This document shows positions 17,201-41,600 of a stretch of DNA of 64,000 nucleotides, piece by piece. The position numbers were made by a program. The number at the start of each line of letters is the position of its first letter. Position 1 is the first letter of the stretch. Origin of the DNA: Rhynchobatus australiae (taxonomy: Eukaryota); assembly GCA_034780895.1 (NCBI GenBank), contig JAUZTB010000001.1, positions 64,872,976 to 64,936,975 of the forward strand, in the 5' to 3' direction.

Positions 17201-20200
17201 CGGAAACATGGTGCGATACTAGATTGGTCCCAATGCTGAGTTGTTCTTATTGTCCTGTTCTCAATCCTGATGGAGATTATCATCATCCTGGGATTCACAT
17301 CCATCTCTGGCACACTGGTCTTCCCAGATCCAATATTTATTTAAAACAAAACCCTGAAGTCCGTGATAGTCTTTCACAATCACCGAAAATAATATTAAAA
17401 TCCAATTTATTACTTAACATATAAATAACCTAAACTCAGACTTCATCCGCTGTAACTTTCACTCAACTTCATCAATCTTTTTAAAACTATTTACTTTTTG
17501 TGAATGACGTTTGTAAACATAAACCCCGACCAGTCAGCGGGCGCTCACATTTTTAACATTAGAATTATTCCCTTTGGGGAAATATATTTTGTTAGCAAAT
17601 AGACAGTCCAGACTAAAATTTGTAATCTGTAAGGACGTTGTAATGAGAAAATGACGGGGTCTGGTTAGTGTTACTGTATTCTAAAGAAAAAAAAGTTAGC
17701 CATCAAAAGTGAAAGATCTGGGAACTGAGTTTACTCCGTAAAGAGACCAGAGTATATGTTTCCACAACTGTTTCATAAACAGTAAGCGTGTGTTTCAGTC
17801 TGCCATCCCCGCTGCCCCCCTTCTCCACTTCTACCGATCTCCAGGACACAGGGTGCAAACTGCAAGAGTAAAATTTTAAAGAGTTCACGTACCGGCTTGG
17901 GCGCTAGTGGGTGGCCGACATTGACCAGGCTCCTTCCATCCTCCACACGGAGAACGCGTAACTCAGTCTCTCGTGGGCCACATAGCTACAGCTGGACATT
18001 TTTTGGTCCATTTCGTCGCTCTGCAAGACCTGGTAGAGGAAGTCGATGTACCTGGCAGCCAGCTTGAGGGTCTGGATTTTGCTGAGTTTGTCGGACGGCA
18101 GGGTGGGGATGATTTTCCTGAGCGACGAGAACGCCTCGTTGAGAGACTGAGTCCTCTGGCGCTCCCTCACGTTGGCCAGGATCCGCTGATTCTGCAGCTC
18201 CTCGTAAGACTGCGAGCTTGGGCTGGACTTTTTGTTTCTTTTGCCGGGGTTCGGGCTCCCGTCCTCGCTGGATTTTTTGCTGTACCTCCTCTTTATGTCG
18301 TACCTCTTCTGCTGTCTGTCCGCCTCCTCCTCGCTGCTCGCTAGACTGTCCGCCGGAGAAACAGGGGCACTGCTCGGGCTTTCTTGCATGATGTCTGACG
18401 GCATGCCACACCGCCCTGGGAGAGGGGGTTGCGGGAAGGAAAGTAGAAACAGAATCAAAGGAGCAAAGTGACTTATCCTCCCGCTACAGAACAAAACCCG
18501 GGAAAGAACCCCCTTCTCGCCTAAAATGGGGACCGAGTTTGGTAGAGTCAGAAACTTCACCAAGTATTTCCCAACTTTTTTGGCTGATTATTGGGAATAA
18601 GAGTGGCTGGAAAGTTGTTACGAGTGCGGAGGTGGCAGGAGTCTGTGATTGGCTGCGACGGGGGTGTAGGAGGGGCCAACTCTTTCAGGAGGCTGACAGT
18701 TAAAGATAATATTTTAGTCGGGGGGAAAAAAAACTTCAGCCAGCCGTGGAGAACGTCATATATTACACTCCTGCAATTAAAAGGGAGACAGTTATCCCCA
18801 AATTTACTCTCCCTCTCTTTCGGTGCCAAAGGCAACAAAACATTAATAGGTCATTTTTACCAAGTCGGGGAGAGGCGAGCGCGCCCAAGGATTTTGTATC
18901 AGGAGGTGGAAAATGTTATTTGCACTAAAAGTAGCAATTCAATTTACAATAAGTATGGATGTTAAATTTGGAAGCACCTCCGAACTCCCTCTCATCCCAG
19001 CGCCGCTCCATTCACACCTAGCAGTCTGTAATATTATTAGTAAACTTATCCCCAGGGATGTAATTTTCAAACGTGCTTGAGATATTCTCAGGACTGTTCA
19101 GGAGTCGAGTTTACTTCCCTTGGGAGTACATATCTATTCCTCTCTCTGTCTTTCTTTTTCTCTCTCCCCGGCCCCAACTCCCAACCCTTGAGCAAAGTAA
19201 CACCTTCGCATAAAGACAATGCTCGGCCCGAGCATCTCGAGCAACCCCCCCTAGTTATTGACTGTGTACAGTCAAGTACACAGGGAAAACGTGCCCTGAC
19301 CGAGTGAAGAAGTGTAGCCCCGTTTTCCAGTGTTAGCTACGATGAAATGCTCCTTCACGGGTTGACAGGTAAAATGGGAAGTCTTTTGCTAAATTTTACC
19401 ACAGCGTTGACAGTATTAAAATACATTGACTGCATGGAATGAAATGCAAGTAGGAAAATCGACAGGCGACGTGTGATCTGTGACTGGTGGCACCTTAAGT
19501 CCTGATGCCTGGGATCTTGTGCCTGTGCATACGCCATGCCCCCAGAGCCTTCCACCAACTGGGGTGGAGTTGTCCTTGCGACCACGATCCAATTCATAAA
19601 GGCCAAACAGCTTCAGGAACATTCATGGCGAAATAACATCTGTAGACACGCTCATTAAACAATTGGACAATTCCCAAGCAGCGCACTAAGAGGTTAGATG
19701 CCGGTGACCCGCTCTAAAGTTAACGATCAGACTCATGAGAATGGAACGGCCACGGAAAGAGTGCAGTTATCTGTGATAGCACGACCCTGCCTTTAACAAA
19801 ACGAGAACACTTGCCTATCTTGTTAAACTAAACAGTCCTAACTCAAGTCCTGGCTCATCATGGTTCCCTGATAATTGAAAAACGGGATATTGCCACCGAG
19901 TTCTGCAAGTTGTTCAAACCGCCTAGAAATGCGGGGTACGGTTCCCTCCCTTTCCAATTCAGGTTTGTGATGTTCTGTGTCGAAAGACAAACCTGCTGTA
20001 ACGACAAAACACGGAAATGTCTACAACTACTTGAATTCTATTATATTAATCCTATGATGTATTTTTAAGAAGTAAGTTTAGGTTGGTAAACCGGCATCTA
20101 ATTACAGCGCCCCAGTCACTANNNNNNNNNNNNNNNNNNNNNNNNNNNNNNNNNNNNNNNNNNNNNNNNNNNNNNNNNNNNNNNNNNNNNNNNNNNNNNN

Positions 20201-38600: not shown

Positions 38601-41600
38601 TCTCCAGCATGGTCCTGATCAAAGTCTAAAAGGCACTCGTCCATTTCCAGCTATACCTGTCACGCTCCGGAGGGGGAGATACACCCGTTTGAGTAGTCAG
38701 GCGCGATGATGGATCTCTGGGTTAAATAGTTTGCTGTTGTATCGCGGGTCGCGTGTACCTATTCTGTTCACCTTCAATGAAGAGGCGGCTGAGGACACGT
38801 GGGTGCTCTTTCATTGCCCGCCTGTGGCTTTGTGCAAGTTTGACATCATGACAATAAATTCACCGATTCCAGTTAATAAGGTACAACTAACTCTCTTGTC
38901 ACCGCCCCCACCCCCAACCCTTTAACAACATCCTATACCGGTCTAGCTATTTACAAATGACATAAACACTTCTAATCTCTTTGGCCTGATTATGTAATAA
39001 TTGAAGATTTCAGTGGTTGGGGCTTGTAAGGAAGTTCTGAGCATTAATTAGACTGTAAGGACAAACTGTCAAAAACACATGGTCTTTGAACCTGCATAAG
39101 TAATGAGGAAGAGGTATTTGAATTCACTGATTCGAATTCATCTTCTCCCACCTTGGGCTTTTAATGTAATTAATAATAAAACAGGAAAAGTACACAGCCG
39201 CGCCATTGAAAGGAAATAAACCTTAAGTACCGATGCGGTTTGTTAAATCGCCGCGTGTATGTAGAATTACATATCTTTCAGACGCTCTGCACAACTTCGT
39301 GTAAGAATTGCAAAAGCAACTAAGTGTAAGTCACAGCACAGTGAAATGCTCTGGAGAATATTATTCCGCGAATTTTCAGAATCTGATCTGAATCATTTAA
39401 ATCAGGTTGCCACAAAGGTGGAGTGTTTCCAATGGCGAACTCCGCCATCTATTTGCCTATGGGATATATGATTTTGACTCAGAGAGTTGTTGCCTGAGAA
39501 ATTAGCGAAAGGCGGGGAGCAACTATTGAGAATTTGAGAGATGCTCCTTTGAATTGCCTTTCTTTAATTCCGGCCCAGCAAAAATAAAATTAATTATTAA
39601 AATTTCCTCCGCATTTTTTACTGACATTGAGGAAAGGGGCAGATCCAGCATCAANNNNNNNNNNNNNNNNNNNNNNNNNNNNNNNNNNNNNNNNNNNNNN
39701 NNNNNNNNNNNNNNNNNNNNNNNNNNNNNNNNNNNNNNNNNNNNNNNNNNNNNNTATCAATAACCGCTTTGTTAAATTTTGATAAAGCTAGGTACTATAA
39801 GGACCCGATATTAACCAATTGGACGTGAGAATCAACAGTCCAGTCAGTTTTCTGAAGGATTCAAGACATTCAGCTGCACGATTGGTTACCAGGTAACAAG
39901 TGCGTGGCAAATATTGAAACACGATTTCGTCAATTGTACATCAAAATTAGGAGAACAAAACCAAAAAGAAAGAGGGTAGAGAGAAAAAAATGAATCGAGT
40001 TTAAAGAGAGAAACCAAAATAGTGAATGAATGCGCCGAATTGGCATCACGTTTCTTGCTGTGCTTCTTGGCGCGTTTCTTCCCTCTGCACTGCCATCCGG
40101 CCCCCACTCCCTTGATGCTGGCCTTCGTTCACTGGAAAATCGCTGCTTACGTTAGATAAAGTTTAAACATATCCAAAAGATGCGATTTCTCTCAGAATGC
40201 TGATGTATCCATTGGTGACATCAGCCAAGAAACCAATGATTACATTTCAAATTTTAATTGACTTTGAATAAACACAGTTCCCCCGAATGCCACGGCGCCG
40301 GAATATTGTGAATGTTTACCCAAAAAATAAATTCACTGGAAACCATTGAGTTTCATGCGAAGTTCCAAGCGCACAAGGAAACCCCGAGCAAATAGCAAAA
40401 GAAAGTGCAGGAGTGTTTGGCGAATCGGGTAGGATCCGCAGAGAAGAAACAGCTTTAAGGATTCAGGTCGCTGACTTTGCACCGGAATTTTGTCTAAACA
40501 GTGCGCACAAGAAGCAAATCACGATTATATATATTCCTATCCCTTCTCTCCTCGTTGGACAATGTAGTTGAAACCCTACGCGTAATTTAAACTGCTCTAT
40601 CCATAATCCAATTATAATCCCTTACTCCATTTTTACAAAAGAGACAAGCCCACCCACAGCAGTATAACAATATCTCTCTCCTTAATGTAACAATAATCCC
40701 CTCTCTGTAACTGTAATCTCTCATGCAATATTATGGCTATAACTCACCGTCCCCTGGTATAACAATTGCACCACATCTAATAAACAATTATAACCCCANN
40801 NNNNNNNNNNNNNNNNNNNNNNNNNNNNNNNNNNNNNNNNNNNNNNNNNNNNNNNNNNNNNNNNNNNNNNNNNNNNNNNNNNNNNNNNNNNNNNNNNNAT
40901 GTGACCTTCAATGTGACCCCTGGTTCCAGATATTCCAGCTGGAGTAAACGTCATCCTGTTCGGGCCCTTAAGAATGTTGCGTTTTTCAATGAGATCACCT
41001 CACATTCTTCTAAACTCTAGAGAGAACTGCCGCCTTAACCCATCCTCACAGGACAAACTCTCCACCCCGGGAATCAATGCGGTGAGCCTTCCTTATGAGG
41101 AGTTGGAGCCAGTATGTTGAACCATACTCATATAATGGGGTTATAATTGTTTATTAGATGTGGTGCAATTGTTATACCAGGGGACGGTGAGTTATAGCCA
41201 TAATATTGCATGGGAGATTACAGTTACAGAGAGGGGTGATGAATCTTCGAAATTATCTGCCGAGGAGGGTTGTGCGGAATGAGTGAACTCAAGACATAGA
41301 TTGATAATTGTACTTTATATATTCAGGGAAACGAGGGAAATCGGGTTAGTACTGAAAAGATCAGCCAGGACGTTTTCGAATAGCGGAGCAACTGCAAGCG
41401 GCCAAATTGCTTACTTCTGCTTCTGTTTCTAATGTTCTTATAACGATAGTCTTCTTCCCTAGAACTATTAACTCCCCTCCCCATAACATAACTAGCATCC
41501 CTCTTTCTGTACAGTACCACCAAATCTCCCCCTCCGAAGGACATTGCGAATTGTTGGTGACGATGGGAATTGAATCCAGGATATGATGCCCTCCAACATT

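What the first reader, a model, noticed from the sequence alone, without database searches (positions are those of the whole stretch)
17904..38644. twist2 in tandem with a Fer2-type bHLH gene: possible relic of an ancestral Twist-Fer cluster
Seen: the Fer2-like gene lies ~16 kb upstream of twist2 on the same strand with no intervening gene. Established: mammalian TWIST1 has FERD3L (Fer3 subfamily) directly upstream on the same strand next to HDAC9, while TWIST2 sits next to HDAC4 without a Fer neighbour, and mammals lack Fer2. Inference: before the vertebrate genome duplications Twist was linked to both Fer2 and Fer3, and the paralogons lost them reciprocally (TWIST1 kept Fer3, TWIST2 kept Fer2). 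The pair may still share a regulatory landscape.
[Added by the scan's program, not by the reader: the finding's places include an assembly gap (unread letters, written N; its length is only estimated) at 20122 to 20221, 21876 to 21885, 28994 to 29561, 31815 to 31831, 32518 to 32560, 33813 to 33912. Whether the letters on both sides are continuous or in frame is not known: test that first.]
Basis: partly seen in the sequence, partly recalled or inferred. Interest (0 to 1): 0.75.

Follow-up and report, generated by a model that had tools for sequence, protein, structure and literature searches.

The report
Fer2-type bHLH gene beside twist2
A ray genome carries an intact vertebrate counterpart of the insect neuron gene Fer2 about 16 kb upstream of twist2, a pairing also kept in bony fishes that mirrors the human FERD3L-TWIST1 pair and hints at an old gene cluster.

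Summary
On the minus strand lie a single-exon twist2 coding region (18404..17904, 166 aa) and a two-exon bHLH gene (exon 1 38644..38068, exon 2 34562..34525, 204 codons). As written they are 16,120 bases apart, 838 of them N in six gaps. No ORF with a Pfam match and no Rfam match lies between them.

The upstream gene belongs to the Fer2 (48-related-2) family. It shares the bHLH core, a post-bHLH extension ending in WNTS, the terminal DLTARLSWI(K/N)W motif and a phase-1 intron with nine arthropod proteins that NCBI names Fer2. In an ML tree a 100/100 branch separates it from PTF1A-type and Twist rows. No Fer3/FERD3L sequence could be obtained, so that exclusion was not tested by tree.

The linkage is not an assembly artefact. 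In 8 of 10 bony-fish species with contig data, both genes sit on a contig of identical length. In one species that contig is 130 kb, and in another the two genes have adjacent locus tags.

The proposed ancestral Twist-Fer2-Fer3 cluster with reciprocal loss is reasonable but untested, because no invertebrate or cyclostome synteny could be examined.

The gene is already in databases under wrong names (zebrafish si:dkey-34f9.3). This is a new member of a known kind, of moderate interest.

The parts
17904..18404 (-). twist2 coding region, single coding exon, 166 aa plus stop; no N inside
   Evidence: ORF; sequence; Pfam HLH at residues 73-123; 97% identical to Amblyraja radiata twist-related protein 2 over the full length; tree
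17891..17892 (-). candidate GT splice donor 11 bases after the twist2 stop codon (start of a 3'-UTR intron)
   Evidence: Sequence only. That vertebrate Twist genes carry an intron in the 3' UTR is recalled knowledge and was not tested here.
18405..34524 (.). intergenic stretch, 16,120 bases as written, with six N runs (838 N), MITE/SINE-like repeats and CpG-rich patches
   Evidence: Gaps; gap edge overlaps; repeats; CpG; no Pfam match; no Rfam match
34525..34562 (-). Fer2-like exon 2: last two bases of an Asp codon, then LTARLSWIKWD and stop TAG (34527-34525)
   Evidence: Only six-frame match in the window; acceptor ttccag|; identical to the last 12 residues of the Hemitrygon akajei orthologue P0001
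34563..38067 (-). Fer2-like intron, phase 1, GT at 38067-38066 and AG at 34564-34563, holding a 4-N run at 38003-38006
   Evidence: Sequence. Read-through 'WNTS+GK/GE' forms in 63 of 150 cluster representatives and 33 of 120 vertebrate hits point to the same intron position elsewhere.
38068..38644 (-). Fer2-like exon 1: 192 codons plus one base; predicted disordered N-terminal ~100 residues, bHLH domain, family-specific extension ending in WNTS; no N inside
   Evidence: ORF; sequence; Pfam HLH at residues 108-159; 95% identical to Hemitrygon akajei P0001; tree; structure of the orthologue

Best explanation
The region holds two intact, separately promoted class-II bHLH transcription-factor genes, head to tail on the minus strand of a batoid (ray) genome. 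One is a vertebrate orthologue of Drosophila Fer2 (48-related-2). The other, about 16 kb downstream, is twist2.

The Fer2-type protein has four parts: an N-terminal half predicted to be disordered, a canonical basic region and HLH, a family-specific short helix after helix 2, and a tryptophan-rich C-terminal motif on its own mini-exon. It is expected to bind E-boxes as a heterodimer with an E protein; this is inferred from the family and not shown here.

The pairing with twist2 is ancestral at least to jawed vertebrates. It mirrors the FERD3L-TWIST1(-HDAC9) arrangement in humans. The most likely history, which is inferred, is that the pre-duplication chordate genome had Twist linked to both a Fer2 and a Fer3 gene. 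The twist2 paralogon then kept Fer2 and the TWIST1 paralogon kept Fer3, and Fer2 was later lost in some tetrapod lines, apparently including mammals.
For: Gene models:
- Both models are intact, with no N in coding sequence.
- The two exons add up to 204 codons, the length of the Hemitrygon orthologue P0001.

Fer2 identity:
- Of the 150 best cluster representatives among 1.84 billion, 3 are PTF1A-type. 132 of the 150 carry the Fer2-type core and the WNTS-ended extension (115 of them are named next). Another 14 have the core alone and one matched no core pattern.
- 51 of the 150 continue into DLxARLSW(I/V)xW. 63 continue as the GK/GE read-through expected from an unspliced GTAAG/GTGAG donor in phase 1.
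- 9 of 120 listed arthropod relatives are named Fer2 by NCBI, and all 9 show the same core, extension and motif. 115 of those 120 have WNTS followed directly by the motif.
- In the ML tree (72 rows, 100 columns), a clade of 63 rows holds the window gene, 11 named vertebrate orthologues and the 9 Fer2-named arthropods. A 100/100 branch of length 1.92 separates it from the PTF1A-type and Twist rows.

twist2 identity.

Linkage elsewhere:
- 14 species appear in both hit lists, and 10 of them have contig lengths for both genes.
- 8 of those 10 share an identical longest-contig length: Danio rerio, Engraulis encrasicolus, Etheostoma cragini, Xyrauchen texanus, Cottoperca gobio, Kryptolebias marmoratus, Diretmus argenteus (129,649 bases) and Synaphobranchus kaupii (locus tags SKAU_G00231380 and SKAU_G00231390).

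Published context:
- Human HDAC9, TWIST1 and FERD3L are neighbours (passage in PMC7912504).
- Zebrafish hdac4 is adjacent to twist2 (supplement legend in PMC3426487).
- Three separate families, Fer1, Fer2 and Fer3, exist in protostomes (passages in PMC5381572).
Against: - No Fer3/FERD3L or named PTF1A sequence entered the tree. Exclusion of Fer3 rests on the absence of any non-Fer2 core among the top 150 representatives, and on my recollection of the FERD3L sequence.
- No protein labelled as D. melanogaster Fer2 was seen. The Fer2 label comes from NCBI names in other arthropods.
- Within the Fer2 clade, the vertebrates are not resolved as a starred clade (70/97 when counted against the other named groups).
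- 2 of the 10 species differ in contig length: Danionella cerebrum, which has small contigs, and Oncorhynchus tshawytscha, which is tetraploid with clusters on several contigs.
- All 8 matching species are teleosts, so they are not independent of one another.
- No linkage of Twist with Fer2 or Fer3 is reported in the passages of the lophotrochozoan linkage study that I saw. Those report NeuroD-Fer3 and other links. Its supplementary figure S21 was not visible.
- From recall, twist and the three Fer genes are on different chromosome arms in Drosophila.
- Four of the six intergenic gaps are of unknown true length.
Confidence: 0.7

Rival explanations
1. The linkage is real but secondary. A Fer2 gene came to lie next to twist2 by rearrangement in an early jawed vertebrate. 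The resemblance to FERD3L-TWIST1 is then a coincidence and not the relic of a three-gene cluster.
For: No invertebrate or cyclostome linkage could be examined. The lophotrochozoan linkage passages I saw list other bHLH links but no Twist-Fer link. From recall, the fly genes are unlinked.
Against: The same relative order and orientation (Fer-type gene upstream of a Twist paralogue, same strand, tens of kb away) would have to arise twice in two paralogons that also share HDAC4/HDAC9 (the orientation in human is recalled). bHLH genes are under 1% of genes, so a bHLH gene as the immediate neighbour of both Twist paralogues by chance is unlikely; this is a rough inference and was not computed.
Confidence: 0.2
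2. The gene beside twist2 and FERD3L beside TWIST1 are duplicates from the vertebrate genome duplications of one ancestral Fer gene. There was then never a Fer2-plus-Fer3 cluster and no reciprocal loss, and the Fer2 assignment is a tree artefact.
For: Identical position and orientation in two paralogons is what ohnologues look like. bHLH alignments are short (100 columns). FERD3L was not in my tree.
Against: The window gene shares three characters outside the bHLH domain with arthropod Fer2-named proteins: the extension, the C-terminal motif and a mini-exon behind a phase-1 intron. Published trees place FERD3L/Nato3 with invertebrate Fer3 and keep Fer2 as a separate family that is also present in protostomes (PMC5381572 passages).
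Confidence: 0.08
3. The adjacency is a scaffolding artefact: the two genes were joined across gaps of unknown length.
For: Six N runs lie between the genes, two of them the conventional 100 N.
Against: Both genes sit on one 129,649-base contig in Diretmus argenteus, have adjacent locus tags in Synaphobranchus kaupii, and share contig length in six more teleosts. Two of the gap edges overlap exactly by 13 and 8 bases.
Confidence: 0.02

Closest known systems
Drosophila Fer2 (48 related 2) and arthropod proteins named Fer2 by NCBI
   Same: Same bHLH core (VPTFP[YF][17 protein letters not shown]), same post-bHLH extension ending in WNTS, same DLTARLSWI(N/K)W motif directly after it, and same clade in the ML tree.
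   Different: The arthropod proteins continue beyond the motif (…ENLGV…) and have unrelated N-termini. The vertebrate protein ends one residue after the motif. The fly protein itself was not seen. Its role in dopaminergic and clock neurons (PMC4207665 and PMC8931002, abstracts and passages) is untested in any vertebrate.
Zebrafish si:dkey-34f9.3 and its vertebrate orthologues (variously auto-named PTF1A, protein Fer3, transcription factor 21 or 15, HLH-13)
   Same: 67% identity over all of exon 1 for zebrafish P0033 and 95% for Hemitrygon akajei P0001. Length is about 205 aa with the same C-terminal mini-exon peptide.
   Different: Nothing structural; this is the same gene in another species. 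The names in the databases are inconsistent, and none says Fer2.
Human HDAC9 - TWIST1 - FERD3L locus
   Same: A Fer-type bHLH gene is the neighbour of a Twist paralogue, next to a class IIa HDAC gene (neighbours per PMC7912504; same-strand, upstream position recalled).
   Different: The neighbour there is the Fer3/Nato3-family gene FERD3L. From recall it is single-exon and lacks the WNTS/DLTARLSW exon; I could not check this. An HDAC gene was not seen in this window.
PTF1A / Fer1
   Same: Related bHLH domain; the loop …[11 protein letters not shown]… is shared.
   Different: The three PTF1A-type representatives have [16 protein letters not shown]…GYISFL and no WNTS extension, and are split off by a 100/100 branch.

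Membership tests
Fer2 / 48-related-2 bHLH family | bHLH domain | tested here: met
   Pfam PF00010, E 6.5e-20, residues 108-159 of exon 1
Fer2 / 48-related-2 bHLH family | Groups with proteins named Fer2, to the exclusion of PTF1A/Fer1-type and Twist | tested here: met
   A 63-row clade with 9 Fer2-named arthropod proteins; 100/100 branch of length 1.92
Fer2 / 48-related-2 bHLH family | Groups with Fer2 to the exclusion of Fer3/FERD3L/HLH-13 | not tested
   No Fer3/FERD3L sequence could be obtained. Indirect evidence only: 146 of the top 150 representatives carry the Fer2-type core, 3 are PTF1A-type and 1 matched no core pattern.
Fer2 / 48-related-2 bHLH family | Post-bHLH extension ending in WNTS, followed directly by DLTARLSWI(N/K)W (a family signature derived here, not a published definition) | tested here: met
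   Window exon 1 ends …MWNTS, and exon 2 reads (D)LTARLSWIKWD. The same signature is present in 115 of 120 arthropod hits, 73 of 120 vertebrate hits and 51 of 150 representatives.
Fer2 / 48-related-2 bHLH family | Phase-1 intron between WNTS and the C-terminal motif | tested here: met
   Seen directly in the window. Elsewhere it is inferred only from read-through predictions WNTS+GK/GE: 63 of 150 representatives and 33 of 120 vertebrate hits.
Fer2 / 48-related-2 bHLH family | E-protein heterodimer, E-box binding, role in neuron subtype specification | not testable with these tools
PTF1A / Fer1 | PTF1A-type bHLH sequence | tested here: not met
   Separated from the three PTF1A-type representatives by a 100/100 branch. 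None of those three is a named PTF1A.
Twist2 | Twist bHLH plus C-terminal Twist box; orthology to twist2 and not twist1 | tested here: met
   Hits named twist2 dominate the listing, with 97% identity to the Amblyraja protein. The window protein lies inside the starred chondrichthyan twist2 clade, and the twist1-named rows form a separate 100/98 clade. No twist3-named sequence was in the set, so twist3 is not excluded by the tree.
   8 of 10 species with contig data share contig length; one 130-kb contig; one pair of adjacent locus tags. All are teleosts. Together with this ray, that covers both major gnathostome branches.
   No long ORF in 1-17,903. The region left of the window is out of reach.

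The most novel reading that the evidence does not exclude
Twist, Fer2 and Fer3 are survivors of a tandem cluster of Twist-superfamily bHLH genes that predates the vertebrate genome duplications. The cluster sat beside the single class IIa HDAC gene. It was held together by shared long-range enhancers and then resolved by reciprocal loss: TWIST1 kept Fer3 and twist2 kept Fer2. Fishes, sharks and some reptiles therefore still carry the true orthologue of the fly dopaminergic-neuron factor Fer2, a gene for which mammalian work has had to use NATO3 as a stand-in.
Probability: 0.4. Interest if true: 0.6.

Novelty: new member of a known kind. Interest (0 to 1): 0.45.

Why it matters
[quoted passage not shown] The papers I read treat PTF1A or NATO3/FERD3L as the vertebrate counterpart (PMC4207665, PMC8931002, PMC11703107).
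- A clear Fer2 orthologue in non-mammalian vertebrates, including zebrafish si:dkey-34f9.3, would allow a direct vertebrate test of that function. It would also explain why mammals offer no clean orthologue.
- The mirrored Fer-Twist pairs give a concrete, checkable case of reciprocal gene loss between paralogons and of an old bHLH cluster.
- The inconsistent automatic names (PTF1A, Fer3, TCF21, TCF15, HLH-13) show an annotation error that is easy to correct.

Tried and rejected
- **Protein atlas look-ups**, window exon 1 and representative P0364: only generic bHLH cluster names. The first hit was the si:dkey-34f9.3 cluster. No help in telling Fer2 from Fer3.
- **P0364 as query for the last homology search**: I guessed it was a drosophilid protein. 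It is from an unnamed source and its nearest relatives are mites and other arthropods, so no D. melanogaster protein was listed. The Fer2 label came instead from nine NCBI names.
- **PDB search**: only generic bHLH chains, the best being TWIST1 8osb_B at 46 bits.
- **Rfam**: no match.
- **Pfam on ten intergenic or intronic ORFs**: nothing at or near a cut-off.
- **Six-frame Pfam scan of the left flank for hdac4 exons**: Dropped.
- **Literature**: 0 papers for 'dkey-34f9.3'. Searches on Fer2/PTFb/vertebrate, twist2/ferd3l/hdac synteny, Fer2/lost in mammals, FERD3L/TWIST/ohnolog and Fer2/teleost/Twist turned up no paper that describes a vertebrate Fer2 orthologue or its linkage to twist2. Subscription journals (for example the 2007 and 2009 Twist-family and zebrafish bHLH papers) and all supplements were out of reach.
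- **C-terminal tryptophan motif and RBPJ**: the idea that this motif binds RBPJ/Su(H), as the PTF1A C-terminal peptides do, comes from recall only. One search found nothing to test it, and it is not claimed.
- **Joined two-exon protein**: never built or searched. Exon 1 was searched alone, exon 2 (12 residues) was only located by motif, and the structure was predicted for the named orthologue P0001 instead.

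
Full report
**What is there**

Two ORFs with a helix-loop-helix domain lie on the minus strand exactly at the limits of the finding. 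The first runs 18404..17904 (166 aa) and the second starts at 38644.

The second ORF, as listed, runs through a splice donor. Its coding frame leaves exon 1 after …MWNTS plus one base, at CG|GTGAGC (exon 1 = 38644..38068). Full-length orthologues end in DLTARLSWIKWD. A six-frame scan of the whole window found that peptide once, at 34562..34525 on the same strand. It sits behind a pyrimidine tract and an AG, and is followed by a stop codon.

The phase fits: G from exon 1 plus AT from exon 2 gives Asp. The two exons add up to 204 codons, the length of the closest orthologue. Exon 1 was searched alone, and exon 2 is too short to search.

**Gaps**

No N lies in any coding part. The intron holds a 4-N run. 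The 16,120 bases written between the Fer2-like stop codon and the twist ATG hold six runs, 838 N in all, so the distance is an estimate.

At two of these runs the read letters on both sides repeat exactly at the edges: 13 bases at 31815-31831 and 8 bases at 20122-20221. The other 15 runs in the window show 0-2 bases. The contigs probably abut at those two runs. For the other four intergenic runs, continuity cannot be tested from the sequence. Independent support for the adjacency comes from other species, described below.

**Nothing between the genes, as far as can be seen**

- No long ORF other than frames running through N looks coding.
- Ten ORFs of 80-134 aa from the spacer and the intron have no Pfam match at or near a cut-off.
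- Rfam finds nothing in the window.
- The spacer holds at least five copies of a short interspersed repeat, some as hairpins, and several CpG-rich patches.
- Short exons or non-coding genes cannot be excluded.

**The downstream gene is twist2**

The best hits are chondrichthyan proteins named twist-related protein 2 (97% to Amblyraja radiata). Tetrapod and teleost twist2 follow, and twist1-named proteins come lower in the list.

In a 25-row tree the window protein sits inside a starred chondrichthyan clade of twist2-named rows. The three twist1-named rows form a separate clade (100/98). The twist2 label occupies one side of a branch at 79/80. No twist3-named sequence was available.

**The upstream gene is a Fer2-family member**

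Exon 1 finds about 205-aa orthologues in four cartilaginous fishes (95% to Hemitrygon akajei, so the window is from a ray), and in coelacanth, bichir, paddlefish, bowfin, many teleosts, a turtle and a crocodile. The zebrafish orthologue is si:dkey-34f9.3. Their automatic names disagree with one another: PTF1A, protein Fer3, transcription factor 21 or 15, HLH-13.

A search of 1.84 billion cluster representatives gave 7284 hits, of which the best 150 are listed. They sort as follows:

| Class | Count of 150 |
|---|---|
| PTF1A-type (artefactual duplicated domains) | 3 |
| Core, WNTS, then DLxARLSW(I/V)xW | 51 |
| Core, WNTS, then GK or GE | 63 |
| Core, WNTS, then G and another residue | 9 |
| Core, WNTS, then something else | 6 |
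| Core, ending at WNTS | 3 |
| Core only (truncated or other) | 14 |
| No core pattern matched | 1 |

The core is VPTFP(Y/F)[19 protein letters not shown] and GE are exactly what an unspliced GTAAG or GTGAG donor gives in phase 1.

A further search with an arthropod representative listed 120 relatives. Nine of them are named Fer2 by NCBI: Prorops, Rhipicephalus, Choristoneura, Panulirus, Rhynchophorus, Palaemon, Procambarus, Aphomia and Musca. All nine have the same core, extension and motif, as do 115 of the 120.

In an ML tree of 72 rows and 100 columns, one clade of 63 rows holds the window gene, 11 named vertebrate orthologues, the nine Fer2-named arthropods and the unnamed representatives. 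A 100/100 branch of length 1.92 separates this clade from the PTF1A-type and Twist rows. Inside the clade most forks are open.

**Limits of that assignment**

- I could not obtain any Fer3/FERD3L sequence or a named PTF1A.
No sequence with a different, non-PTF1A core appears among the 150 nearest representatives. My recollection is that FERD3L has a different core and no second exon, but that is recall and not a result.
- The fly protein itself was not seen.

**Linkage in other species**

The two hit lists share 14 species, and 10 of them have contig data for both genes. In 8 of those 10 the longest contig has the same length for both genes:

- Danio rerio, 59,035,420
- Engraulis encrasicolus, 56,351,229
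- Etheostoma cragini, 29,379,295
- Xyrauchen texanus, 45,535,019
- Cottoperca gobio, 24,104,793
- Kryptolebias marmoratus, 32,959,753
- Diretmus argenteus, 129,649
- Synaphobranchus kaupii, 72,423,192, where the locus tags are consecutive (SKAU_G00231380 and SKAU_G00231390)

The two mismatches are Danionella cerebrum (contigs of 311 and 127 kb) and Oncorhynchus tshawytscha (a tetraploid, with clusters on several contigs). A Perca pair also matches in length, but under two species names.

All eight matching species are teleosts, so they count as one lineage. Together with this ray they place the linkage in the common ancestor of jawed vertebrates and rule out a scaffolding artefact.

**Literature**

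- No paper in the searchable library mentions si:dkey-34f9.3.
- Five further searches found no description of a vertebrate Fer2 orthologue or of its linkage to twist2.
- Older surveys lump Fer2 and Fer3 as 'PTFb'. One table gives Drosophila 2, lancelet 3, chicken 1, zebrafish 2, rat 1 and mouse 1 (PMC2862960, table text). This fits an extra gene in fish.
- Bao et al. 2017 recognise three families (Fer1, Fer2, Fer3), but their Table 1 counts one human gene under 48-related-2/Fer2 (PMC5381572, passages). I could not see which gene, because the supplements are closed. This stands against 'mammals lack Fer2' until it is resolved.
- HDAC9, TWIST1 and FERD3L are called neighbours in PMC7912504 (passage).
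- Zebrafish hdac4 is adjacent to twist2, and an hdac7-like pseudogene is adjacent to twist3 (PMC3426487, supplement legend in the main text).

**Interpretation**

1. Fer2 and Fer3 must be distinct before the bilaterian radiation. This is published and consistent with my data.
2. FERD3L must lie upstream of TWIST1. The neighbourhood is published; the orientation is recalled.
3. Fer2 must lie upstream of twist2 in early jawed vertebrates. This is shown here.
4. Both must have been linked to Twist before the duplications. This is untested.

Given the first three, an ancestral Twist-Fer2-Fer3 neighbourhood with reciprocal loss is the simplest account, and I put it at about 0.4-0.5. The main rival is a secondary juxtaposition. 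The ohnologue rival (one ancestral Fer gene) conflicts with the three extra-domain characters shared with arthropod Fer2.

**How the parts probably work**

Both genes have CpG-rich 5' ends of their own, so they are separate transcription units.

An AlphaFold model was made of the Hemitrygon orthologue with a 42-sequence alignment. Mean pLDDT is 58. It shows:

- a disordered first ~100 residues;
- the two bHLH helices (104-131 and 145-165, pLDDT up to the mid-80s);
- a short helix in the extension (169-179);
- a short helix over SDLTARL (192-198).

The closest solved bHLH by sequence is TWIST1. DNA binding as an E-protein heterodimer is inferred from the family. The partner of the invariant tryptophan-rich tail is unknown. 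A shared regulatory landscape with twist2 could not be tested.

**Verdict**

The cluster hypothesis is plausible and open. The gene itself is a new member of a known family that is already present, misnamed, in public annotation.

Noticed in passing
window 25132-25172, 28086-28126, 31548-31588, 32281-32321, 33098-33138; hairpins 31547-31674 and 28091-28202: A short interspersed repeat with the core TGCTGGAGGAACTCAGC(A/G)GGTCAGGCAG occurs at least five times in the spacer. Twice it forms a near-perfect hairpin (42-nt arms, 98% complementary). It looks like a MITE- or SINE-type element.
   Followed up: partly
window 25401-29000, 34201-34600, 37001-37600, 43601-44000: CpG-rich patches (GC at least 0.50, CpG observed/expected at least 0.6, against a window median of 0.51) lie away from the two 5' ends. 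One sits just 3' of the Fer2-like stop codon and contains a perfect TGACGTCA palindrome at 34478-34485. They may be regulatory elements, an unannotated promoter, or repeats.
   Followed up: no
window 46218-47445, minus strand: Open frames resembling the C-terminal part of a LINE-type reverse transcriptase, and the conserved tail that follows it, interrupted by the N run 46777-47260. The resemblance is judged by eye from recall; no family search was run.
   Followed up: no
window gaps 31815-31831 and 20122-20221: The read letters on both sides of these N runs repeat exactly at the edges (13 and 8 bases), as if overlapping contig ends had been separated by a placeholder gap. The other 15 runs show 0-2 bases.
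   Followed up: yes
proteins P0275, P0281, P0287, P0291: A group of orthologue-like representatives rich in Arg, Gly and Ala. P0291 has an intact WNTS-DLTARLSWVKWD end, and the group forms a starred clade in the tree. They may come from GC-rich genomes such as birds. Their taxa could not be looked up, so the tetrapod range of the gene stays open.
   Followed up: partly
one search hit list: Public annotation gives this one orthologue group at least seven different names (PTF1A, protein Fer3, fer3-like, transcription factor 21, transcription factor 15, HLH-13, helix-loop-helix protein 1-like or 6-like), and none of them says Fer2. In 42 of the 120 listed models the protein reads on with Gly straight after WNTS (33 of them GK/GE). 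That points to a missed 38-base last exon and read-through into the intron.
   Followed up: yes
window 14177-14240: A (CT)n microsatellite of 31.5 copies.
   Followed up: no
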